Of a DNA stretch of 34,147 nt, positions 1 through 34,147 are shown one piece after another (the first letter of the stretch is position 1; the number at the start of each line of letters is the position of its first letter). The DNA is from a virus: the IMG/VR virus record IMGVR_UViG_3300017764_000033; one strand, given 5' to 3'. A program made the position numbers and the translations under genes. The notes beneath the pieces are model-generated. The model ran no database searches. It was not told the origin of the DNA and was given only the letters and a program-made list of their open reading frames with translations.

Positions 1-123
1 ATTGAAATACAGCGTATCTCCATCTTGAAACACCTCAACCAATGACGTAGGGTCATTCGTATACCCAAAGTCAAGCCCGTAGCTTATCAGCTTGGCATGA
101 GGTGGCACTTTCATTATTGTGTC
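1..123. repeat. Terminal direct repeat, copy 1. It is identical to 34025..34147 and is most likely the assembly overlap of a circular or circularly permuted genome.
   Basis: Base-by-base comparison: attgaaatacagcgtatctcc...cattattgtgtc occurs at both window ends, 123/123 identical. The repeat lies inside the terL coding frame. Confidence 0.95.
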
Positions 124-2306: not shown

Positions 2307-2732
2307 TGTGATGCCATTACGATTGACTCCCCTTTCCAAGAAGTTTTCTTTTAGGTATTTCGGTAGCGACATCTCAGTGCAGTAAGCCGATATCGTATGT
2401 ACATCATATTCCTTAAAGATAAGGTTTATTCTATAGTCCCAAAGTGCTGAATATAAACCTTTTCCACGAAAATTCTCTCTAACGTAGTCGGTCTTGAAAC
2501 GTATGTGCCCTTCTTTGATCTCTTGCCACCCTACTACTGCAACAGGATGGATTCCATTCATCACACAGGCATAATGTGTCTTTGGATCTTGTTTCTTAAT
2601 TGCTACTCGCTCCTTGACTAATTCTCTACGGAATCTCCCGTATACCTCATCATGATCTATTCGATATATCTTCATACTCATAGTATTTCTCGTGTCTATC
2701 AGGTGTCGGTACAATTGATCTCTTGTAACCAC
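2286..2732 (-). CDS. GNAT-family N-acetyltransferase-like protein
   Basis: Acetyl-CoA motif-A-like RGKGLYSAL, followed by a beta-strand-rich C-terminus. The start is probably the ATG at 2675 (MKIYRIDHDE...), which cuts the overlap with the upstream gene from 83 nt to 26 nt. Confidence 0.6.
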   Translation of the reverse strand: MVTRDQLYRHLIDTRNTMSMKIYRIDHDEVYGRFRRELVKERVAIKKQDPKTHYACVMNGIHPVAVVGWQEIKEGHIRFKTDYVRENFRGKGLYSALWDYRINLIFKEYDVHTISAYCTEMSLPKYLKENFLERGVNRNGITYVKYNP

Positions 2733-3777
2733 CGCCTATAATCTTGCCAAAAACGTACAATGCAGGGAATCCTGCTAACGGGTCATCGGGTTTTGCATTC
2801 TTGGCACGGCTCTTTCTCACCTGTGCTACTTTTTGCATGGCTTGGTTGTACTGATACTCATCCGTTATGTTCTCTTTTATGTACAGGTATATTGCTCCCC
2901 ACGCATCTCCTGCCTTCTCCTTGTACTCGTATGCAATCTTATCAGTCTTTCCCTTTACCATGTCCTTATAGTATCTCGCCTGTACGTCAACTTCGGGAAA
3001 TACCTCCATGATCTGATTGTACAACACAGGATCATTGGTCTTGAGCTTATGCAACTGCTTGGCCGCCTCTGCGTGAATAGCTGAAGCTACTCGTAACGGA
3101 TCTTTATTGAACACTTGGTTGTCATATACCTTGCAATACTCTATATCCTTATCGTAGAAATACTTGAACACGTCCTTCTCACTCCAATCGTACACAGGTT
3201 TGAACATAGATACGTTCTTGACAAGTGGACTCTTCGTTAGATATGGTATTGTACTTGCCGTGATTCCTTGAAATCTCAACAGGCTCTCTTGCGCTCGTAT
3301 TCCAATACACAATGCAATCCTCTTGCGCTTATTCTTAAAGAAGTATTTCTCAAATTCCTCTTGCTTCATCACACCCTTCATAGTCTCAGCTACATCGGGT
3401 TTCGGAACGATCCAATTACCCTTGCGTTTCTCGTCCCATTGAACGTACTTACGCTTCTCTCCCAATATGTAGATCTCAGATTGCAATGGCGTGGCCAAGT
3501 ACACAAAATTGTATCTCGGATCATCATATTGCGATAATACAAAATCACGTATTGCGCCATTTATGACCTCTTCATCTCTGAAGATTACGTTTATCTTGTC
3601 TTTGTATCCCTTCATGTCAAGGTACTCTTCCATCAGCTTTAAGCAGACCAGGCTATCCTTTCCTCCACTATAACTAACCCATACCTCATCATGTGAATTG
3701 TAAACCCTATCGATGCGATCTAATGCCGCTTCGTAGACGTTCCTATCCTCATATATCAGATCCTCTTTTCGTGCCAT
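2650..3777 (-). CDS. PP-loop ATP pyrophosphatase, PAPS-reductase-like (IbrA/DndC-like)
   Basis: 375 aa. The PP-loop SGGKDS is encoded at 3652..3669 (checked codon by codon). A long C-terminal extension follows, as in DUF3440-type PAPS-reductase-like proteins (recall). Confidence 0.8.
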   Translation of the reverse strand: MARKEDLIYEDRNVYEAALDRIDRVYNSHDEVWVSYSGGKDSLVCLKLMEEYLDMKGYKDKINVIFRDEEVINGAIRDFVLSQYDDPRYNFVYLATPLQSEIYILGEKRKYVQWDEKRKGNWIVPKPDVAETMKGVMKQEEFEKYFFKNKRKRIALCIGIRAQESLLRFQGITASTIPYLTKSPLVKNVSMFKPVYDWSEKDVFKYFYDKDIEYCKVYDNQVFNKDPLRVASAIHAEAAKQLHKLKTNDPVLYNQIMEVFPEVDVQARYYKDMVKGKTDKIAYEYKEKAGDAWGAIYLYIKENITDEYQYNQAMQKVAQVRKSRAKNAKPDDPLAGFPALYVFGKIIGGGYKRSIVPTPDRHEKYYEYEDISNRS

Positions 3778-4430
3778 TACTCCTCGTCTATGTCGTATTC
3801 AATGAACTTGAGTATCAATTCACTCTCCTTCATGTTGTTATCGTTATACACCTCAGCTACATACGCAAGAACACGTTGGCTCACATTGTCATAGTCCTCG
3901 AATTTGTTTTTCAACTTACGCAAGAAGGAGTACCATACATCCATCTGCGCTTCATTGGCAAAGTAGATCGTGTAGTCATTAAACTTCGTGGTATCTAATG
4001 CCTCATCCATTGTCTCATCATCACCCTCTACGTTGAACATACTCGGATCCATGTCGAGTGCCCATTCATCTAACTGATACGCATCGAACTGATTGGCCAA
4101 CATCTCCCAATCCCACTTACCATACGCAATGTTGTCTTTGACTATGAACTCTTGCTTCTGCTTCTCCGTGAGATCCAACACACGCATAACAGGTACACGC
4201 TCTAACCCTGCTTCGAGACAGGCACGATATCTCATGTTTCCCCCAAGAACAACCATATCTTCATCCACCACAATAGGGCGAATATCAAGCATCTTAGGAA
4301 ACTTCTTAATGCTTTGTACCAACTTGCGGAACTTAACGTCCTCAATGTATCTTGGATTGACATCATTCAGCTTTATGTCTTTTACCTCCATGTAGATCGG
4401 CTCATACCGACCTGTTTCTCTATTCTCCAT
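3777..4430 (-). CDS. ParB N-terminal-domain protein (stand-alone, no fused methyltransferase)
   Basis: 217 aa with ...KLNDVNPRYI...IRPIVVDEDMVVLGGNMRYRACLEAGLERVPV..., a classical ParB box (GxxRxxA). Its stop overlaps the downstream ATG (TAATG at 3775..3779). Confidence 0.75.
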   Translation of the reverse strand: MENRETGRYEPIYMEVKDIKLNDVNPRYIEDVKFRKLVQSIKKFPKMLDIRPIVVDEDMVVLGGNMRYRACLEAGLERVPVMRVLDLTEKQKQEFIVKDNIAYGKWDWEMLANQFDAYQLDEWALDMDPSMFNVEGDDETMDEALDTTKFNDYTIYFANEAQMDVWYSFLRKLKNKFEDYDNVSQRVLAYVAEVYNDNNMKESELILKFIEYDIDEE

Positions 4431-8908: not shown

Positions 8909-9077
8909 AACCCTCTCAAAGTAACGTAACACAATAATTACTCCGATAGCTTGTTTATACGTCCAATTCCTTGCGCCTGTAATGATCCATCACAACATTT
9001 TCTGCTGTACTTACCATTGCTACATAGACAACCACGCTCGTCATCTTTTCTTGTACTCTCTCCGTGCGTTTTGTTTC

Positions 9078-9944
9078 CTATCTCGTCCATATCGTTGGTA
9101 AAATCACTAATCTACATTTGCCTTGCTCTTCCGTATACACTAAATCTGCTACTACACAGCCTATCGGTTTAGGTGGTGCGCCTCTCTCAACGTGCCATCC
9201 CATATAACCATCCCTAAATTCATCTTTATAACACCCTGTTCTGAAGTGATGCACTTCTCTATGCTTAGGTATCATCGTATTCTTACACAGGTATTTCTTA
9301 CTCCACACCATCGTGTATAACTCATGAACGTGTCCCATCATAACAAGATCCGCACCTTCAATATCAGCCATTTGCCGTTGGTGCTGTATCACACCTCTTG
9401 TAACAGGGCCACCTCCACCACTTCCGTGATAGTAGTACATATTACATTTTACGGTCTTTTGGCTGTTATCGTAAGGCTTAATCTGCCATGACAACCAACC
9501 ACCATATCCACCAATCGAAAGCTCTCCATTTGCTACGTGATTAAACAGGTCTACAAATCTCTGCAATGGATCAGTTTCAATGTTCTTCACGATAGCTGTC
9601 TCATGATTACCATACCCTACCAAGATTAAGATACTTGCATACGGCTTAAACCACTCTACAGCATCCTCAATCACAGCATCAATATAGTTCGGCTTGTTGT
9701 GTTCGGGTAGTATGTCCTTCTTGCTTCTTCTTGGATCATACTTACCCTGCATCAAACAAAACAAATCTCCATTTATGATCACCTTACGATCCTCTGATAG
9801 ACATCGGTCTAAATGCTTCTTCAACAAATCACGATCACACTTCGGGTTGTCCCAATGTATGTCGCTCATAAATGCTAACTTTTGCTCCTTTACCCCGCTC
9901 GTCTTACCAACATGGCTGTTACGATGTTTTGCTACTAATTTCAT
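9078..9944 (-). CDS. Calcineurin-like metallophosphoesterase
   Basis: Motifs in canonical order: FMSDIHWD (DxH), INGDLF (GD), VGYGNHE (GNHE), MMGHVHE (GH.H). The start is placed at ATG 9944, which forms an ATGA overlap with the holin stop. The track ORF extends to 10031. Confidence 0.75.
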   Translation of the reverse strand: MKLVAKHRNSHVGKTSGVKEQKLAFMSDIHWDNPKCDRDLLKKHLDRCLSEDRKVIINGDLFCLMQGKYDPRRSKKDILPEHNKPNYIDAVIEDAVEWFKPYASILILVGYGNHETAIVKNIETDPLQRFVDLFNHVANGELSIGGYGGWLSWQIKPYDNSQKTVKCNMYYYHGSGGGGPVTRGVIQHQRQMADIEGADLVMMGHVHELYTMVWSKKYLCKNTMIPKHREVHHFRTGCYKDEFRDGYMGWHVERGAPPKPIGCVVADLVYTEEQGKCRLVILPTIWTR

Positions 9945-10324
9945 TTGACCTTTCCTCTTTTGTCTATGGTACGCACGGCAAAATAGCCTCCTATTACCGA
10001 TACGCTCACCATCTGCCATAATGATATCCACGCATCATCTACCTCAAGCCAATCCGCACCATCAAAAAAGGTCAGCAAGATCAGTGTACTTATTACTACT
10101 ATTAGGGTTAGCGGTCTAACGTTCTTAGATAGCCAAGAGTCTGACTCCATGTCAGCTTTCCATCGTTCTGATATAGTACGCTCAATAGCCGCTTCAAACT
10201 CCTTTTTCTCTTCAGGTGTTTGGATAAACTTATCTGCCACATCAGATACTTCTTTAATGACCGATACAGCACCGCCTCCCAATAATTTCTTAAGTACACC
10301 ACTCATAATCTTTAACTTCCACAC
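9941..10324 (-). CDS. Holin (two predicted TM helices)
   Basis: The N-terminus, LLGGGAVSVIKEVSDVADKFIQTPEEKKEFE, resembles 3TM/GTA-type holins (recall). TM segments are PLTLIVVISTLILLTFF and ISLWQMVSVSVIGGYFAV. It lies next to the endolysin. The likely start is ATG 10306. Confidence 0.6.
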   Translation of the reverse strand: MWKLKIMSGVLKKLLGGGAVSVIKEVSDVADKFIQTPEEKKEFEAAIERTISERWKADMESDSWLSKNVRPLTLIVVISTLILLTFFDGADWLEVDDAWISLWQMVSVSVIGGYFAVRTIDKRGKVK

Positions 10325-10428
10325 CCCTCACAATCGGGGTTATCAATACTACACGCATTCTCATTCTTCGGATCAACTTCTAACTCGTTAACCCAATCAC
10401 TAAAATCATTACTCAATGATCCATCCAT
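10312..10428 (-). CDS. Possible 38-aa acidic Cys-containing peptide between endolysin and holin
   Basis: MDGSLSNDFSDWVNELEVDPKNENACSIDNPDCEGCGS*. The longer track ORF (to 10503) lies mostly inside the endolysin gene in another frame. Confidence 0.25.
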   Translation of the reverse strand: MDGSLSNDFSDWVNELEVDPKNENACSIDNPDCEGCGS

Positions 10429-10846
10429 ATTCCGCTTGTACATCAAAGCAAGGACACGCCTTACTACTAAATTCATTATGACCATGCAGGGTTGATCCTT
10501 CATATTGATGGGTTAGCAACTTCAACAGGTACGTCAGAGCAATATCTTGCTCATGCGTTCTTGTATCTTTAGGCTCTCCATCCTTATCAAGTCCTCCTAC
10601 ATAACATACACCCACACTGCCTGTGTTCTCTCCTTTTACATGAGCACCAACACGACTTACATCACGACCTGCGTGTACTTGACCATTAAGGTCTATCACA
10701 TAATGATATCCTATATCTGACCAACCACGCATTTTATGCCATTTTCTGATAGTTTCGACACTAATGGGCTGTCCTTCTCTCGTTGCACTACAATGCACGA
10801 TTACCTTACTGATTTCCCTACTTGTTCTCTCTAACATCTTCGGCAT
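10409..10846 (-). CDS. N-acetylmuramoyl-L-alanine amidase endolysin (Amidase_2 / T7-lysozyme-like)
   Basis: VIVHCSAT...WHKMRGWSDIGYHYVID..GQVHAGR...GAHVKG.N..SVGVCYVGG...HGHNEF..KACPCFDV. This covers the full set of PGRP/T7 lysozyme signature blocks. Confidence 0.9.
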   Translation of the reverse strand: MPKMLERTSREISKVIVHCSATREGQPISVETIRKWHKMRGWSDIGYHYVIDLNGQVHAGRDVSRVGAHVKGENTGSVGVCYVGGLDKDGEPKDTRTHEQDIALTYLLKLLTHQYEGSTLHGHNEFSSKACPCFDVQAEYGWIIE

Positions 10847-11243: not shown

Positions 11244-12350
11244 TCATCGTATCTGATAGTTTATACCTGCTCGTAGGTTAAAGATATTTCTGTCCCAATA
11301 CTGCATATATTCAGCCTCAGTGAAAATGCCCCATCTCTGACCTAATTTCCAACCTAAAACCATTCCTGCATTATAGTCTATCCATTGGCCATCTACCCAA
11401 TGATTCGTGTTGTCAAGTTCGTCAGCGAAATTCTCATACGAAAACATATGATCCCCGTAGATGTGTCTATGCCAAGGCAATACACTTGCCCAAGCGTGAA
11501 TCCAAAACTTTTCTTCGTAGTGGTAGTAGTCTAATCCTACAATTGCACTTGCACTATACAAAGGCCCGACAAGAGCGTACATAGTGCGATTATAGTCATT
11601 CACTATGTTGCCGTATATGTAGGTTCTAAAGTCAGCATCAGTGGCCGCTACTTGCACATCATTTGCATCACACCATAGCCAATCTGAATTGTCAATCACA
11701 TCATCATTGTCAAAGTCAATACCATACGGGACATCCTTGTATCCATACTCATATGCTAAATCCCACCATGCCTTGTCCTGTAGGTATATTGCAACAGGAT
11801 TATACCCATATGCTCTATGTTGTCTTGCCGCTATACCAAAGCTGAGGTCTATTTCACCTACATGAAGTCTTGCTCTGCTCTCTACTTGTGTATAATTGAG
11901 ATCCACAAGACCTTGCCTGTAAAACTCTCCTTTCAACATGAAATACTTACTCAAGTACCTCATGAAATACCTCTGATTCACATAATCACGCCCTTGTTGT
12001 CTACCTCTATCGTATTGAGCAAGGTATTCTATACCTGTTACTGATCCTATTGTAGCACTGAGGGCTGTGGTGCTTTCCGTTTGACCATCGTAGAAGCGAT
12101 TTTGCTTATTCTCATAGTCATATCGTGCCACTCTTCTAATACCAATCGTTGCTTTGTAGTCAATAGGGTTCTGACGAGTAATATCCATCAACGAGCCATC
12201 TTGCGATACAAAGTATTCCGTTGGGGCATCCATAGGAGTAGAAGCAAAAAGGCTTGAGTACATGGTTGCGTACTTAAACAGCCCACCCACTTTTTGCGCC
12301 TGTACCATAGTGGTACACATCATAAAAAAGGTTACTAAAAATGCTCTCAT
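11244..12350 (-). CDS. Secreted beta-barrel outer-membrane-like protein
   Basis: 368 aa. Signal peptide MRAFLVTFFMMCTTMVQA/QK. Rich in Tyr, Trp, Asp and Gly, with many alternating amphipathic strands (ATIGIRRVARYDY, IDLSFGIAAR, AIVGLDYYHY, AGMVLGWKLG, WGIFTEAEYMQY, FNLRAGINYQI). The C-terminal strand ends ...GINYQIR. Confidence 0.55.
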   Translation of the reverse strand: MRAFLVTFFMMCTTMVQAQKVGGLFKYATMYSSLFASTPMDAPTEYFVSQDGSLMDITRQNPIDYKATIGIRRVARYDYENKQNRFYDGQTESTTALSATIGSVTGIEYLAQYDRGRQQGRDYVNQRYFMRYLSKYFMLKGEFYRQGLVDLNYTQVESRARLHVGEIDLSFGIAARQHRAYGYNPVAIYLQDKAWWDLAYEYGYKDVPYGIDFDNDDVIDNSDWLWCDANDVQVAATDADFRTYIYGNIVNDYNRTMYALVGPLYSASAIVGLDYYHYEEKFWIHAWASVLPWHRHIYGDHMFSYENFADELDNTNHWVDGQWIDYNAGMVLGWKLGQRWGIFTEAEYMQYWDRNIFNLRAGINYQIR

Positions 12351-12351
12351 A

Positions 12352-12705
12352 TCAAAATTTGTTAGCTCCTGTGATCCTATCTACCTCTCGCTGTACATTC
12401 ATATAGTCCACTCTGAGCTGTAGGCTTATACCTGCTTCCCAACGTGCTATCTCTTTACCATTATTGTACAATATCAATGAAGGGACACTCATTATGTGCA
12501 TTTGCTCCTGTATCATTGCGTTATCATCTATCCATATCGTGTACTTGTCAACGTCAATTACCTTTCTCTTGTCATTGAAGGTGTTATTTTCGTTAAATCG
12601 AGCGTTAAACTCTACAAGTGCAAGTCCTCTTTGCCATGCCTCTTTCTTCGCAGGTGTAAATGCACACATAATACATGCTAATATGGTCAGTAATGATCGT
12701 TTCAT
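12352..12705 (-). CDS. Exported thioredoxin-fold protein lacking the CxxC active site (possible lipoprotein)
   Basis: 117 aa. Signal/lipobox-like MKRSLLTILAC. ALVEFNARFNENN aligns to thioredoxin vLVdFwAeWCgpC, with both cysteines absent. SVPSLILYNNGKEIARWEAG matches the cis-Pro block (vPTlilfknGkev..G). Confidence 0.55.
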   Translation of the reverse strand: MKRSLLTILACIMCAFTPAKKEAWQRGLALVEFNARFNENNTFNDKRKVIDVDKYTIWIDDNAMIQEQMHIMSVPSLILYNNGKEIARWEAGISLQLRVDYMNVQREVDRITGANKF

Positions 12706-12980
12706 CGTATCTCAAATAATCTCTCTTCCATTCTTTCGAGCTGTTTCTTTATATCAGCTACGTCATCCTGTGTATTCATGATTGTCTCACGAACGAGTTT
12801 GTCTTTTAAGTCAAATTCAACTCTACCAATTACAGGTTGCGGTAACGTCTTAGCCTCTTGAACCTCAGCTTTAAGGTCAAAGTACCCCATTGTAGCCATC
12901 ACACAAGCCCCTATAATGACTCCTAACGACTTTAAACTTAATCCTAATACCGTGTTCTCGCTGACCTCGTTAATTGCCAT
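12702..12980 (-). CDS. Single-pass membrane protein with a C-terminal coiled coil
   Basis: 92 aa. TM segment LKSLGVIIGACVMATMGYF, then a helical, charged C-terminus (DDVADIKKQLERMEERLFEI). ATGA overlap with the next gene. Confidence 0.6.
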   Translation of the reverse strand: MAINEVSENTVLGLSLKSLGVIIGACVMATMGYFDLKAEVQEAKTLPQPVIGRVEFDLKDKLVRETIMNTQDDVADIKKQLERMEERLFEIR

Positions 12981-12986
12981 TACGTC

Positions 12987-13169
12987 TTAGCTTTTGTGGT
13001 ACATTACGAAGATCTTGTAATCTCCTGCATCCAATGTTTGTATTTTTGCTTCAGCATTAGCTATATCTGCGTAGCTCGTTACGTCAGTATCCCCAACGTA
13101 TTGCCTCCATTCCGTTCCGTGTAGCACTTGTGCGTTTGCTGTATCCTCGATGTAGTACTTCTTGTCCAT
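12987..13169 (-). CDS. Hypothetical small protein
   Basis: 60-aa ORF. Its ATG overlaps the fibre gene's stop (TAATG). Confidence 0.5.
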   Translation of the reverse strand: MDKKYYIEDTANAQVLHGTEWRQYVGDTDVTSYADIANAEAKIQTLDAGDYKIFVMYHKS

Positions 13170-14242
13170 TACGATAGTCTTATAATTTGAATAGCACCTA
13201 CATCACCTCCTGTACTCGTTACCTTGTGGTTCGCTACTCCCGAATGCAGGAATGTCTCTACCTCAATGTAATTACCATTTGATGCAGAAACTACAAACGA
13301 TGCGCTCGTAGTAGATTTGTGCCCGTAAGTGCTATGTCTAAAGTATTGTAGGTTACATGATCCCGCTATTGTAGTCCCGTTCTTCTGCACTACCGCTCCA
13401 AACGTAGATCGGTTAGCGTACAATGACTGCCAATTTATGTTGTACATAATCATGTAAGTCCCTGTAGCGTTAAACGTGATCCTGCTACTCGATATCGTTG
13501 TGCCTGTCGTGCCATCTAACTCTTGTGTTCCAATACTGATCTTAGCACCACTTGAGGTGTACGTTTGACTTGAAGTGAATAGATACTTGTCAGCCGTGTA
13601 CATAGCTCCGTTTGAACCATTCGAGCCGTTTGTCCCGTTCGTCCCGTTTGAACCTGCTGGGCCTTGAGGCCCTTCTACACCTTGATCACCTTGAGGCCCT
13701 TGAATTCCTTGTGGCCCCGTAGCACCATTTGAACCATCAGCACCATCACTTCCATCACTTCCTGCAATCCCCTGTGGCCCTTGAGGGCCTGTAGCTCCCG
13801 CCGCTCCCGCAGGGCCTTGAGGGCCCGTTGCTCCCGCTGAACCTGCCGCACCCGCAGAGCCTCTTACATTTCCTACATTAACCTCACCGAGATTATCAAT
13901 CTCTAAGACTAACTCATAGTTTTGCAAAGAAGCACCTGTTACTGAATTACCATCAGCACCTGCCGATCCATTAGAACCATTCGAACCCGCGGGGCCTTGT
14001 GGGCCTTGTGGGCCTGTAGGGCCTGTACTTGTAGGCAGGGTTACTGATCCACCACTATTGGATAACGTAAGCGTAGTACCACTAACGCTCAATGCTTGAG
14101 TATACGTTCCGCTTAGATCGGGTATACGAGCGGAACTAAATGTCCCACTCGTAATTTTTGCGGCTGACAGGTTCGGTACATCACTTGAAGCAATGTTCAT
14201 CGAACCCGTTACATCTAATGCGCCTAAAACCTTTACAGCCAT
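13169..14242 (-). CDS. Collagen-like tail fibre with a C1q/TNF-like C-terminal head
   Basis: 357 aa. Two Gly-X-Y blocks (aa 74-99 and 128-212). The C-terminal 145 aa have jelly-roll-like signatures (ITFNATGTYMIMYNINW...VVQKNGTTIAGS...SASFVVSASNGNYIEVE). The N-terminus, MAVKVLGALDVTGS, resembles that of the neighbouring fibre. Confidence 0.8.
   Translation of the reverse strand: MAVKVLGALDVTGSMNIASSDVPNLSAAKITSGTFSSARIPDLSGTYTQALSVSGTTLTLSNSGGSVTLPTSTGPTGPQGPQGPAGSNGSNGSAGADGNSVTGASLQNYELVLEIDNLGEVNVGNVRGSAGAAGSAGATGPQGPAGAAGATGPQGPQGIAGSDGSDGADGSNGATGPQGIQGPQGDQGVEGPQGPAGSNGTNGTNGSNGSNGAMYTADKYLFTSSQTYTSSGAKISIGTQELDGTTGTTISSSRITFNATGTYMIMYNINWQSLYANRSTFGAVVQKNGTTIAGSCNLQYFRHSTYGHKSTTSASFVVSASNGNYIEVETFLHSGVANHKVTSTGGDVGAIQIIRLS
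13607..13861 (-). repeat. Coding Gly-X-Y collagen repeat block 2 (85 aa)
   Basis: GSAGAAGSAGATGPQGPAGAAGATGPQGPQGIAGSDGSDGADGSNGATGPQGIQGPQGDQGVEGPQGPAGSNGTNGTNGSNGSNG. Coordinates were computed from aa positions. Confidence 0.9.
13946..14023 (-). repeat. Coding Gly-X-Y collagen repeat block 1 (26 aa)
   Basis: GPTGPQGPQGPAGSNGSNGSAGADGN. A 28-aa non-collagen interruption separates it from block 2. Confidence 0.85.
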
Positions 14243-33631: not shown

Positions 33632-34147
33632 TCACCTAAGAGCGTATCTACCCCTGTTTGGATTCTTCATGGCCATCCATACACCATATCTCAATGCATC
33701 AATGGCGTGATTGAACAGGTCAACAGGTTTGTTCAGTAGCTTACCATCCTTATCCTCTGCCCACTTGTAGTTACGCATTTCCTTTATACCATTGGTGCTG
33801 TTATCAGTCCATACAAGCCTATGCCTTCTTAGCATATCAATACCCATCATGACACTATCCTTACCCTTGCTCGTTGGTCTGACGTTGAATCCCCATCGGT
33901 GTATCTCATCAATAGCCTTTGGTTCTGCACTATCAGCCCATACAGGTATCTCTCTATCAATGTCAAACATCCTCATCTTTTCCGCTATACCCGCATTGGT
34001 CAATCCTGTCTCATATATCAGCTCATTGAAATACAGCGTATCTCCATCTTGAAACACCTCAACCAATGACGTAGGGTCATTCGTATACCCAAAGTCAAGC
34101 CCGTAGCTTATCAGCTTGGCATGAGGTGGCACTTTCATTATTGTGTC
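33632..34147 (-). CDS. terL: Terminase large subunit, C-terminal nuclease part (continues from 1..774 across the circular junction)
   Basis: GLDFGYTNDPTSLV..., VWADSAEPKAI and DLFNHAIDALRYG are RNaseH-like terminase nuclease motifs. The frame is open to the window end. The circular gene is 1167 nt (388 aa). Confidence 0.9.
   Translation of the reverse strand, partial: DTIMKVPPHAKLISYGLDFGYTNDPTSLVEVFQDGDTLYFNELIYETGLTNAGIAEKMRMFDIDREIPVWADSAEPKAIDEIHRWGFNVRPTSKGKDSVMMGIDMLRRHRLVWTDNSTNGIKEMRNYKWAEDKDGKLLNKPVDLFNHAIDALRYGVWMAMKNPNRGRYALR
34025..34147. repeat. Terminal direct repeat, copy 2 (identical to 1..123)
   Basis: See copy 1. Confidence 0.95.

What the first reader, a model, noticed from the sequence alone, without database searches (positions are those of the whole stretch)
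11244..12980. Three-gene envelope module: membrane-anchored coiled coil, thioredoxin-fold lipoprotein lacking CxxC, and a beta-barrel outer-membrane-like protein
Seen in the sequence: three tightly coupled genes (an ATGA overlap at 12702..12705 and a 1-nt gap at 12351) lie between the tail fibres and the lysis genes. They encode:
- A 92-aa protein with one TM helix and a charged helical C-terminus.
- A 117-aa exported protein with a lipobox-like ILAC. It aligns to thioredoxin, but WCGPC is replaced by RFNEN, while the cis-Pro block SVPSLILYNNGKE is kept.
- A 368-aa protein with a cleavable signal peptide (VQA/QK). It has the aromatic-rich, alternating-strand composition of an outer-membrane beta-barrel.

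Inference: together these would span the inner membrane, the periplasm and the outer membrane. Two functions seem plausible. One is a non-canonical functional analogue of spanins in a Bacteroidota host, since no small Rz/Rz1-like pair is visible next to the holin and endolysin. The other is a superinfection-exclusion or receptor-masking device. A phage-encoded 40-kDa OM barrel paired with a pseudo-thioredoxin is unusual in either case.
Basis: partly seen in the sequence, partly recalled or inferred. Interest (0 to 1): 0.7.

Follow-up and report, generated by a model that had tools for sequence, protein, structure and literature searches.

The report
Conserved three-protein envelope module in phage lysis region
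A marine phage that probably infects Flavobacteria carries three tightly linked genes (an inner-membrane coiled-coil protein, a redox-dead thioredoxin-fold periplasmic protein and an outer-membrane barrel) that recur together in hundreds of uncultured phages, often beside the lysis genes, and may be an undescribed way of breaching the outer membrane.

Summary
Three tightly packed minus-strand genes lie between the tail fibres and the amidase/holin genes.

- **p92:** one TM helix followed by a heptad coiled coil.
- **p117:** signal peptide plus thioredoxin fold. CxxC is lost across the family and the cis-Pro is invariant.
- **p368:** signal peptide plus an orphan ~14-strand OM beta-barrel.

One detail is wrong. 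The "ILAC lipobox" is not a lipobox, because that Cys is not conserved and most relatives have SPase I ...AQ sites.

The trio is a conserved unit. At least 586 IMG/VR contigs encode the barrel. In 68 of 68 loci with enough flank, both partners are adjacent, in either of two gene orders. A recognised endolysin or holin lies within four genes in 31 of 59 loci, with three different endolysin types.

One clade has only p92-p117. In two of the six such loci inspected the pair sits directly before the endolysin, with the holin following. That clade's p117 lacks the C-terminal aromatic residue that barrel-linked p117 almost always has (108 of 109).

This complete genome has no lipoprotein spanin candidate.

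Best reading (confidence about 0.45): a trans-envelope, spanin-like or lysis-accessory complex. No function is demonstrated. About ten relatives carry a u-spanin-like gene next to the trio, which argues against simple spanin replacement.

The parts
12702..12980 (-). p92: bitopic membrane protein. It has a short acidic N-tail, one TM helix (about residues 14-34), an LPxP hinge and a 55-73-residue coiled-coil domain (E55, K59, D60 and R64 invariant). It is the i-spanin-like component.
   Evidence: - ORF.
- Family alignments. Subfamilies differ by an insertion of exactly 7 residues in the helix, which fits heptad register.
- TM position.
- Only generic coiled-coil Pfam or PDB hits.
- At least 526 IMG/VR contigs encode a relative.
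- Topology from the positive-inside rule is weak (K+R 1.94 on the N side versus 1.57 on the C side).
12352..12705 (-). p117: exported thioredoxin-fold protein. It has a signal peptide and is not a lipoprotein. The CxxC motif is replaced by F-N-x-x-N. The cis-Pro (P75-T76) is invariant. The C-terminus is a conserved aromatic residue (...NKF).
11244..12350 (-). p368: orphan outer-membrane beta-barrel.
- The signal peptide is cleaved before Q19.
- There are about 14 strands.
- A 32-residue periplasmic turn (74-105) is invariant in length and highly conserved.
- A 36-residue loop containing helix 238-261 is also invariant in length.
- Loops 38-63, 179-204 and 299-324 vary in length.
12351..12351 (-). 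Single-base spacer between the p117 stop codon (TGA) and the p368 start codon (ATG), consistent with translational coupling.
   Evidence: Across loci, 33 of 44 p117->p368 junctions are overlaps or gaps of at most 4 nt.
12702..12705 (-). ATGA stop/start overlap between p92 and p117.
   Evidence: The same 4-nt overlap occurs in 27 of 73 loci, and 70 of 73 have an overlap or a gap of at most 10 nt.
10409..10846 (-). Context: Amidase_2 endolysin.
   Evidence: PF01510, E=8.7e-12; phrog_822, E=4.7e-59.
9941..10324 (-). Context: holin.
   Evidence: phrog_3427, E=1.4e-18; TM at about residue 68.
13169..14242 (-). Context: collagen-like tail fibre directly upstream of the module. Only a 60-aa ORF lies in between.
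   Evidence: PF01391, E=2.3e-16; phrog_5073, E=1.5e-31.

Best explanation
The three genes encode one trans-envelope assembly made late in infection, as part of or next to the lysis cassette. It most likely acts at the outer-membrane step of lysis, as a spanin-like or spanin-accessory machine.

**Proposed arrangement**
- p92 is anchored in the inner membrane, with its coiled coil in the periplasm.
- p117 is a soluble periplasmic thioredoxin-fold adaptor with no redox chemistry. It keeps the cis-Pro peptide-binding groove.
- p368 is assembled in the outer membrane as a roughly 14-strand barrel.
- p117 docks on the barrel through its free C-terminal aromatic residue. The likely docking site is the conserved periplasmic turn at residues 74-105.
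- p117 binds p92 through its vestigial active-site groove.

**Shown here**
- The folds and export signals.
- Obligate co-occurrence and tight gene coupling.
- Association with endolysin and holin genes.
- The link between barrel presence and the C-terminal aromatic residue of p117.

**Inferred, not shown**
- The topology of p92.
- The physical contacts between the three proteins.
- Late expression.
- The actual effect on the outer membrane.
For: 1. **Unit.** 68 of 68 barrel loci with at least 900 nt upstream and 1500 nt downstream carry p92 and p117 next to the barrel.
   - Two gene orders exist (92-117-368 in 44 loci, 368-92-117 in 29) and the trio stays together in both.
   - p92->p117 overlaps or is within 10 nt in 70 of 73 loci.

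2. **Compartments.**
   - p92 has a single TM helix plus a heptad coiled coil with 7-residue indels.
   - p117 and p368 have signal peptides obeying the Bacteroidetes Q-rule in 30-36 of 40-49 and 50 of 52 sequences (rule from PMC5837995).
   - p368 is a barrel.
   - Some p117 subfamilies carry paired Cys residues, which fits a periplasmic location.

3. **Lysis context.**
   - 31 of 59 full-trio loci have a Pfam- or PHROG-verified endolysin or holin family within 4 genes. The figure is 41 of 59 if small 2-TM proteins and u-spanin-like genes are counted.
   - A second locus set, selected by p92, gives 31 of 53 within 2 kb.
   - Three different endolysin types sit next to it: Amidase_2, M15 (phrog_894) and PG_binding+Amidase_2. 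Two holin families also occur.
   - In 164-kb phages the trio lies between a 2-TM protein and the endolysin/holin pair.

4. **Barrel-less clade.** Two of the six inspected loci (L145, L177) have p92-p117 directly followed by an M15 endolysin, with a holin after it; L151 has one small lipoprotein gene in between. This is the position where spanin genes usually sit.

5. **Barrel/p117 link.** 108 of 109 barrel-linked p117 sequences end in F, Y or W. Only 1 of 9 barrel-less sequences does.

6. **No alternative in this genome.** The window is a complete genome with a 123-nt terminal repeat. No ORF has a usable lipobox, so there is no o-spanin or u-spanin candidate.

7. **Barrel conservation pattern.** The periplasmic turn 74-105 and loop 228-263 are invariant in length and highly conserved, while three other loops vary.
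Against: - About ten relatives (L006-L013, L021, also L018 and L020) carry a u-spanin-like gene beside the trio, with an N-terminal lipobox and a C-terminal TM. A pure spanin substitute would then be redundant. Published surveys say Bacteroidetes phages use u-spanins (PMC12596118).
- 18 of 59 loci have no recognisable lysis gene nearby.
- The soluble domain of p92 is only 55-73 residues. Even with a thioredoxin domain added, it looks short for spanning a periplasm.
- p92 topology is not settled by charge bias: 1.94 versus 1.57 K+R.
- In barrel-less phages, p117 has no evident outer-membrane anchor.
- The C-terminal aromatic correlation rests on essentially one clade, so it counts as one evolutionary event.
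- No cultured phage carries the module, so there is no experimental anchor.
- Barrel Foldseek TM-scores to solved barrels are low (0.2-0.3), and I could not inspect the coordinates.
Confidence: 0.45

Rival explanations
1. Lysis-timing or lysis-inhibition sensor rather than a membrane disruptor. The barrel would act as an outer-membrane sensor or decoy. p117 would relay the signal, and p92 would modulate the holin in the inner membrane. This is conceptually like T4 RI/T or FecA-FecR trans-envelope signalling.
For: - It has the same lysis-cassette context as the best explanation.
- It coexists with u-spanin-like genes in about ten loci, which fits an accessory or regulatory role better than a redundant disruptor.
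- The p92 N-tail has nearly invariant residues (E8, K17, T18) next to the membrane.
- The barrel's putative surface loops vary in length.
Against: - No sequence similarity to any antiholin family.
- The cytoplasmic tail of p92 is only about 15 residues.
- The complete genome in the window has no other outer-membrane-disrupting candidate.
Confidence: 0.15
2. Superinfection exclusion or receptor masking. The barrel, with its partners, would alter or occupy the cell surface so that further phages, or released progeny, do not adsorb to infected cells or debris.
For: - The module lies next to tail-fibre genes in the window and in several relatives. This resembles T5 llp and lambdoid cor (own knowledge).
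- Phages do encode outer-membrane barrels, as the BFVD hits to phage porins and OMPs show.
- Three barrel loops vary in length, as expected for surface loops.
Against: - No PADLOC match.
- No copies in isolate or prophage genomes. Only 8 MAG contigs were found.
- The genes sit among the structural and lysis genes on the same strand.
- An inner-membrane coiled-coil partner is not needed for masking.
- The p92-p117 pair can exist without the barrel, immediately upstream of the endolysin gene.
- The module is conserved across phages of 30-164 kb, which presumably use different receptors.
Confidence: 0.12
3. The barrel is an outer-membrane enzyme or channel, for example a lipid- or LPS-modifying enzyme or a solute pore, and p92 and p117 are assembly or regulatory factors. 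The link to lysis genes would be positional only.
For: - Many invariant polar residues lie on barrel strands and loops: R72, E108, R176, S268, D274, H285, D325, E345 and N364, with H294 and S304 nearly invariant.
- Loops rich in His and aromatic residues are conserved.
- Other phage-encoded porins exist.
Against: - No similarity to OMPLA, PagL, PagP, LpxR, omptins or porin families in Pfam, NCBIfam or PDB sequences.
- I could not examine the geometry of any active site.
- This reading does not explain the p92-p117 pair found without the barrel next to endolysin and holin genes.
Confidence: 0.1

Closest known systems
Two-component spanins (lambda Rz/Rz1 type: i-spanin plus o-spanin)
   Same: - The first gene encodes a protein with an N-terminal TM helix and a periplasmic coiled coil.
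- The partner gene follows immediately and overlaps it.
- The location is in or next to the holin/endolysin cassette.
- Together the products would reach from the inner to the outer membrane.
   Different: - The partner (p117) is a folded thioredoxin-like protein with an SPase I signal. It is not a short proline-rich lipoprotein.
- Outer-membrane anchoring would be through a separate 368-aa beta-barrel.
- There is no sequence relationship to any spanin family in Pfam or PHROGs.
- The i-spanin-like domain is only about 55-73 residues.
- The module sometimes coexists with a u-spanin-like gene.
Unimolecular spanins (T1 gp11 type), reported as the only spanin type in Bacteroidetes phages (PMC12596118)
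   Same: Proposed role at the outer-membrane step of lysis in the same host phylum. In about ten relatives a gene with u-spanin architecture lies directly beside the trio.
   Different: A u-spanin is one protein with an N-terminal lipobox and a C-terminal TM. The trio is three proteins with no lipid anchor. The window genome has no u-spanin candidate.
Thioredoxin superfamily (Trx, DsbA or TlpA-like periplasmic members)
   Same: p117 has the fold, the strand and helix order, and the cis-Pro loop.
   Different: No CxxC, and no conserved Cys anywhere in the family, so no redox chemistry is possible. It is a pseudo-enzyme that probably serves as a binding module.
Phage-encoded outer-membrane barrels (lambda Lom; prophage porins such as Lc and NmpC; metagenomic phage porins in BFVD)
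   Same: A phage gene for an exported outer-membrane beta-barrel, placed near tail-fibre genes as lom is.
   Different: - Not an 8-strand Ail/Lom barrel and not a 16-strand porin.
- No Pfam family.
- Obligately linked to two partner genes.
- Conserved across hundreds of phage genomes that show no sign of lysogeny, rather than scattered as a moron.
T9SS outer-membrane barrels of Bacteroidota (PorV; PorP/SprF)
   Same: Same host phylum. Two distant relatives of the barrel lie just after a phage gene with a signal peptide and a Por_Secre_tail C-terminal domain.
   Different: No NCBIfam or Pfam match to PorV or PorP/SprF. Foldseek did not retrieve PorV. Most loci have no CTD-bearing neighbour.

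Membership tests
Thioredoxin fold (p117) | Sequence-profile similarity to thioredoxins | tested here: met
   The A3 profile hits 272 PDB thioredoxin-family sequences, best E=1.8e-12 and 4e-9. The single sequence is only marginal: PF00085 E=0.013 and TIGR01068 E=1.5e-4.
Thioredoxin fold (p117) | Beta-alpha-beta-alpha-beta-beta-alpha core with a cis-Pro loop | tested here: met
   AF2 pLDDT 87.7. All of the top 50 Foldseek PDB hits are thioredoxins, with probability 1.00 and TM 0.5-0.65. P75 is invariant and T76 nearly so.
Thioredoxin (as a redox enzyme) | CxxC active site | tested here: not met
   R-F-N-E-N in the window and F/W-N-x-x-N across the family align to WCGPC. No Cys is conserved.
Two-component spanin | i-spanin: N-terminal TM with a periplasmic coiled-coil domain | tested here: inconclusive
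   The architecture is met: TM plus heptad coiled coil with 7-residue indels. N-in/C-out topology is not decided by charge bias. The domain is shorter than in typical i-spanins.
Two-component spanin | o-spanin: outer-membrane lipoprotein with a lipobox Cys | tested here: not met
   The ILAC Cys of p117 is at residue 11, fails the lipobox pattern and is not conserved. The family has SPase I sites.
Two-component spanin | Adjacent, overlapping or embedded genes within the lysis cassette | tested here: met
   ATGA overlap. 70 of 73 loci have a gap of at most 10 nt. A verified endolysin or holin lies within 4 genes in 31 of 59 loci. Two of six inspected barrel-less loci read p92-p117-endolysin-holin.
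Two-component spanin | Membership of a known spanin sequence family | tested here: not met
   No Pfam, PHROG or NCBIfam spanin hit for p92 or p117.
Two-component spanin | Required for outer-membrane disruption; spherical-cell phenotype when absent | not testable with these tools
   This needs genetics in a cultured host-phage pair or complementation of a spanin-null phage.
Outer-membrane beta-barrel protein (p368) | Cleavable signal peptide | tested here: met
   A hydrophobic region followed by A/S/G-Q occurs in 50 of 52 family members. This fits the Bacteroidetes Q-rule (PMC5837995).
Outer-membrane beta-barrel protein (p368) | Closed antiparallel barrel with an even number of strands | tested here: inconclusive
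   DSSP on the AF2 model gives 14 long strands. All 50 best PDB Foldseek hits listed are membrane beta-barrels, almost all bacterial outer-membrane proteins, but TM is only 0.2-0.3. Coordinates could not be inspected for closure.
Outer-membrane beta-barrel protein (p368) | C-terminal beta-signal ending in an aromatic residue | tested here: inconclusive
   The family ends ...G-I-N-Y-Q-F-R or ...N-F-K-L. The aromatic residue is at position -2 or -3, not last. Terminal residues are R 26, L 12 and F 7 of 52.
Outer-membrane beta-barrel protein (p368) | Membership of a described OMP family | tested here: not met
   No Pfam hit for 52 members, no NCBIfam hit, no PHROG hit and no PDB sequence hit. A HMMER scan of 1.84 billion representatives listed its 150 best matches, and these look like the same family, many of them fragments; the weaker 300 or so were not shown.
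T9SS PorV or PorP/SprF barrels | Sequence or fold similarity to PorV or PorP/SprF | tested here: not met
   No NCBIfam or Pfam hit at E<=1. These proteins are absent from the listed Foldseek hits.
Anti-phage defence or exclusion systems | Match to a catalogued defence protein | tested here: not met
   No PADLOC hit at E<=0.1 for any of the three proteins.

The most novel reading that the evidence does not exclude
The trio would be a third architectural class of phage outer-membrane disruption machinery, a tripartite spanin. An inner-membrane coiled-coil protein would be connected, through a redox-dead thioredoxin-fold adaptor, to a dedicated phage-encoded outer-membrane beta-barrel. The adaptor's C-terminal aromatic residue would plug into the barrel. 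On this reading it is used by a large fraction of marine Flavobacteriia phages, most of which have no recognisable spanin.
Probability: 0.3. Interest if true: 0.85.

Novelty: new variant of a known kind. Interest (0 to 1): 0.74.

Why it matters
**Open question.** How phages of Bacteroidota breach the outer membrane is largely unresolved. Cultured flavobacterial phages mostly lack recognisable spanins (PMC8776804), and surveys find only u-spanins in this phylum (PMC12596118).

**What this adds.**
- It defines a conserved, widespread and wholly uncharacterised three-gene envelope module that sits in lysis cassettes. More than 500 viral contigs carry it, in genomes of 30-164 kb.
- It gives concrete, falsifiable predictions:
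  - which residues mediate contact (the C-terminal Phe of p117, barrel turn 74-105 and the cis-Pro groove);
  - which clade lacks the barrel.

**If it is a lysis device.** It would be a new structural solution to the last step of lysis. It would also be a rare case of a thioredoxin fold used purely as a connector and of a beta-barrel used as a lysis component.

**If it is something else.** It would still be one of the most widespread unannotated envelope systems in marine phages.

Tried and rejected
- **Lipoprotein reading of p117 (ILAC): rejected.** The Cys is not conserved, sits at residue 11 and fails the pattern. The relaxed-pattern hit IGAC in p92 was rejected for the same reason.
- **Cultured-phage homologues: none found.** Searches against 50,697 phage records found nothing: blastn on the region, tblastn with the barrel, tblastn with a distant barrel (P0120) and tblastn with a p92 consensus.
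- **Cellular homologues or prophages: none convincing.** The genome-contig scan returned only 8 MAG contigs, several clearly mis-binned.
- **Remote family assignment of the barrel: nothing.** Pfam on 52 members, NCBIfam, PHROGs, a PDB sequence profile and a HMMER scan of 1.84 billion representatives gave no link outside its own family among the matches shown.
- **PorV or PorP/SprF idea: not supported.** It was prompted by Por_Secre_tail neighbours in L001 and L004. Neither sequence nor fold supports it.
- **p92 family assignment: no result.** Only generic coiled-coil noise, such as DUF1664, FlaC and XhlA at E>1e-4.
- **Sigma-70 promoter and terminator scan: uninformative.** Counts were at or below shuffle expectation, and Bacteroidota promoters are not covered by the tool.
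- **Loop-length correlation between p117 and the barrel: not used as evidence.** Only the putative extracellular loops correlate, which probably reflects shared phylogeny.
- **p117-based locus scan: refused.** The alignment was too divergent, so the p92 alignment was used instead.
- **Literature searches: no description of this module.** Searches covered spanin, beta-barrel, and Flavobacterium or Bacteroidetes phage lysis.
Full report

Yes, apart from one detail. On the minus strand there are three ORFs: 12702-12980 (92 aa, p92), 12352-12705 (117 aa, p117) and 11244-12350 (368 aa, p368).
- The p92 stop and the p117 start share ATGA.
- One base separates the p117 stop from the p368 start.
- Only 6 nt separate the preceding 60-aa ORF from p92.
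- Upstream lie a 606-aa fibre and a collagen-like fibre (PF01391; phrog_5073, E=1.5e-31).
- Downstream lie a 96-aa coiled-coil ORF, an Amidase_2 endolysin (phrog_822, E=4.7e-59), a holin (phrog_3427, E=1.4e-18) and a metallophosphoesterase.

The window carries a 123-nt terminal direct repeat, so it is a complete genome of about 34 kb. All its genes lie on one strand.

**2. Host**

The portal protein's only cultured relatives are the Nonlabens (Flavobacteriaceae) phages P12024S and P12024L, at 35% identity. Those phages are syntenic with the window from portal to tail fibre to endolysin, holin and metallophosphatase.

Three further points fit a Bacteroidota host, probably marine Flavobacteriia:
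- Both exported proteins follow the Bacteroidetes Q-rule, meaning the signal peptide is cleaved before Gln (PMC5837995). This holds for 50 of 52 barrels and most p117 sequences.
- Two distant loci have a neighbouring gene with a T9SS C-terminal domain.
- The few genome-bin hits include Bacteroidetes and Flavobacteriaceae MAGs.

**3. The three proteins**

*p92*
- It has a short acidic N-tail, one TM helix, an LPxP hinge and then a helix of 55-73 residues with a 3-4-3-4 hydrophobic pattern.
- E55, K59, D60 and R64 are invariant.
- Subfamilies differ by an insertion of exactly seven residues, as expected for a coiled coil.
- No family is assigned. Only weak generic coiled-coil hits appear.
- Charge bias does not settle its topology: 1.94 versus 1.57 K+R.

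*p117*
- The single sequence is only marginal against thioredoxin models.
- A 49-member family profile hits 272 PDB thioredoxins, best E=1.8e-12. It places A-x-F-N-x-x-N against A-x-W-C-G-P-C.
- The AF2 model (pLDDT 87.7) retrieves only thioredoxins among its top 50 hits.
- No Cys is conserved, while P75 (the cis-Pro) is invariant. It is therefore a redox-dead thioredoxin fold that keeps the peptide-binding loop.
The Cys is at residue 11, is absent from relatives, and most relatives have ...AQ or ...SQ SPase I sites.
- The family has 536 clusters, all unnamed.

*p368*
- The AF2 model has pLDDT 81 and pTM 0.72, with 14 long strands.
- All 50 best PDB Foldseek hits listed are membrane beta-barrels, almost all bacterial outer-membrane proteins (NanC, NalP, BamA, FapF, EspP and others). 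TM-scores are only 0.2-0.3.
- BFVD gives one unnamed viral protein at TM 0.66-0.70 and otherwise phage porins at low TM.
- There is no match in Pfam, NCBIfam, PHROGs or PDB sequences.
- A HMMER scan of 1.84 billion representatives found 454 matches. The 150 best, which are the only ones listed, look like members or fragments of its own family.

Reading the strand order with the N-terminus in the periplasm gives the following layout:
- long loops at 38-63, 179-204, 228-263 and 299-324 on the outside;
- short turns inside, except for one 32-residue periplasmic turn at 74-105.

That turn is poorly modelled (pLDDT below 50) yet strongly conserved: Y79 and G89 are invariant, and E80 and Y87 nearly so. 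Its length is essentially fixed at 31-34 residues. The 36-residue loop with helix 238-261 is also fixed in length. Loops 38-63, 179-204 and 299-324 vary.

**4. Is it a unit?**

- At least 586 IMG/VR contigs encode the barrel and at least 526 encode p92. Their genomes range from 30 to 180 kb.
- HMM searches covered the six-frame ORFs of the fetched loci. In all 68 barrel loci with enough flanking DNA, p92 and p117 lie next to the barrel.
- Two arrangements occur, 92-117-368 in 44 loci and 368-92-117 in 29. p92->p117 stays in that order in all 73 loci, directly adjacent in 70 of them and 362 nt apart in the other three.
- p92->p117 overlaps or lies within 10 nt in 70 of 73 loci.
- Neighbouring genes are otherwise lineage-specific. 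The window's p60 and p96 have no homologues in any locus.

**5. Context**

- In 31 of 59 full-trio loci, a verified endolysin or holin family lies within four genes. The figure is 41 of 59 if small 2-TM proteins and u-spanin-like genes are counted.
- An independent set selected by p92 gives 31 of 53 within 2 kb.
- The endolysin type differs between lineages: Amidase_2, M15 (phrog_894) or PG_binding_1+Amidase_2. The holin type also differs (phrog_3427 or phrog_199). The association therefore cannot be explained by a single inherited gene block.
- In the 164-kb phages the order is 2-TM protein, barrel, p92, p117, endolysin, holin.

**6. The barrel-less clade**

- Nine of 62 p92-selected loci have p92-p117 but no barrel within 4 kb. 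I inspected six of them.
- In L145 and L177 the pair is followed directly by an M15 endolysin, with a holin after it. In L151 an 87-aa lipoprotein gene follows p117, ahead of the endolysin and holin.
- Eight of these p117 sequences lack a C-terminal aromatic residue. In contrast, 108 of 109 barrel-linked p117 sequences end in F, Y or W, and the one exception ends ...EKFK.
- The eight form one neighbour-joining clade. This amounts to roughly one evolutionary event and is not strong statistics.
- It still points to the C-terminal aromatic residue as the barrel-contact element.

**7. Spanins**

- The complete window genome has no ORF with a usable lipobox, and so no o-spanin or u-spanin candidate. 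It also has no homologue of the relatives' u-spanin-like gene.
- On the other hand, eleven loci carry a gene with textbook u-spanin architecture within three genes of the trio or inside it. Eight of these (L006, L007, L009-L013, L021) have it directly after the trio, and they include some of the window's closest relatives.
- The literature says Bacteroidetes phages use only u-spanins (PMC12596118). It also says most cultured flavobacterial phages show none (PMC8776804).
- The cultured relative P12024S has two unrelated genes in the slot between the tail fibre and the endolysin. These are gp11 and gp12, and gp12 has an N-terminal TM.

**8. Interpretation**

The best-supported reading is a trans-envelope assembly made with the lysis genes. 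It would consist of p92 in the inner membrane, p117 as a periplasmic connector and p368 in the outer membrane. It would act at the outer-membrane step as a spanin-like or spanin-accessory device.

- Shown: the folds, the export signals, co-occurrence, gene coupling, lysis-gene association and the link between the barrel and the C-terminal aromatic residue.
- Inferred: p92 topology, the protein contacts, expression timing and the effect on the outer membrane.

The main counter-evidence is fourfold:
- coexistence with u-spanin-like genes;
- the loci that lack nearby lysis genes;
- the short periplasmic reach of p92;
- the lack of an outer-membrane anchor in barrel-less phages.

The rivals are a lysis-timing sensor, exclusion or receptor masking, and an outer-membrane enzyme or channel. 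None is excluded, but each explains less. In particular, none explains p92-p117 sitting alone beside the endolysin and holin. There is no PADLOC match.

**9. Novelty**

- No cultured phage, Pfam, PHROG or NCBIfam family, or paper in the searched library describes this module.
- Its parts belong to known fold classes, and its likely role resembles that of spanins. I therefore rate it a new variant of a known kind.
- There is a substantial chance, about 0.3, that it is a genuinely new class of outer-membrane disruption machinery.

Noticed in passing
window 1-123 and 34025-34147: There is a 123-nt exact terminal direct repeat. The window is therefore a complete genome of about 34 kb, either circularly permuted or with direct terminal repeats. 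All of its genes are on the minus strand.
   Followed up: partly
L006:7120-7536, L009/L013:7081-7497, L021:7080-7496, L018:7596-8009, L020:7617-8027, L065:6634-6819: These genes have textbook unimolecular-spanin architecture: an N-terminal lipobox (for example LSSC), a beta-rich middle and a C-terminal TM. They lie directly after or inside the trio in relatives. The window has no counterpart.
   Followed up: partly
L145, L148, L151, L153, L154, L163, L174, L177 (p92 at about 4001-4280 in each): This clade has the p92-p117 pair but no barrel within 4 kb. In L145 and L177 the pair is followed directly by an M15 endolysin, with a holin after it. The clade's p117 lacks the C-terminal aromatic residue. 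L151 has an 87-aa lipoprotein gene right after p117.
   Followed up: yes
L001:4597-8004 and L004:3079-6588: On contigs of 230 kb and 109 kb, a protein of 1135-1169 aa with an N-terminal signal peptide and a T9SS C-terminal sorting domain (Por_Secre_tail) lies upstream of the barrel gene: immediately upstream in L001, and four small genes away in L004. A phage cargo for the host type IX secretion system would be unusual.
   Followed up: no
L001:9414-9761, L004:9733-10071, L062:1558-1863, L068:7185-7499: Some lineages have a second p92-like gene (TM plus coiled coil; HMM E about 2e-10 in L062 and L068) inserted within the module. L060 and L079 also have a weak 74-aa match to the p117 profile (E=5e-05 and 2e-05) upstream of the barrel.
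   Followed up: no
window 10312-10503 (-) and 8938-9090 (-): There are two small Cys-rich ORFs. One ends ...CEGCGS and is conserved next to the endolysin and holin genes in L016 and L023. The other contains CLCSNGKYSRKCCDGSLQAQGIG, and a near-identical 49-aa ORF follows the barrel in L035.
   Followed up: no
window 2650-3777 (-): A PAPS-reductase-like protein (phrog_2302, E=4.9e-84) is present. PHROGs classes this family as auxiliary metabolic or host-takeover.
   Followed up: no
window 13169-14242 (-): The tail fibre has collagen Gly-X-Y repeats and a weak BclA_C-like C-terminal domain (E=3.1e-05, below the Pfam cut-off).
   Followed up: no
L098 (Nonlabens phage P12024S) 8218-9194: This cultured relative is syntenic with the window from portal to metallophosphatase. 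In the slot where the window has the trio, it carries gp11 (99 aa, soluble) and gp12 (212 aa, N-terminal TM). Both are unannotated.
   Followed up: partly
L065:7739-8167: A second small outer-membrane barrel (142 aa, weak OMP_b-brl hit, C-terminal ...LRF) is encoded about 200 nt downstream of the trio in a phage contig. This suggests the region is a hot spot for envelope genes.
   Followed up: no
window 9078-10031 versus 9941-10324 (-): The mechanical ORF for the metallophosphoesterase (GTG start, 317 aa) overlaps the holin gene by 91 nt. Public gene calls use a later start that gives 288 aa, so the overlap is probably an artefact of ORF extension.
   Followed up: partly
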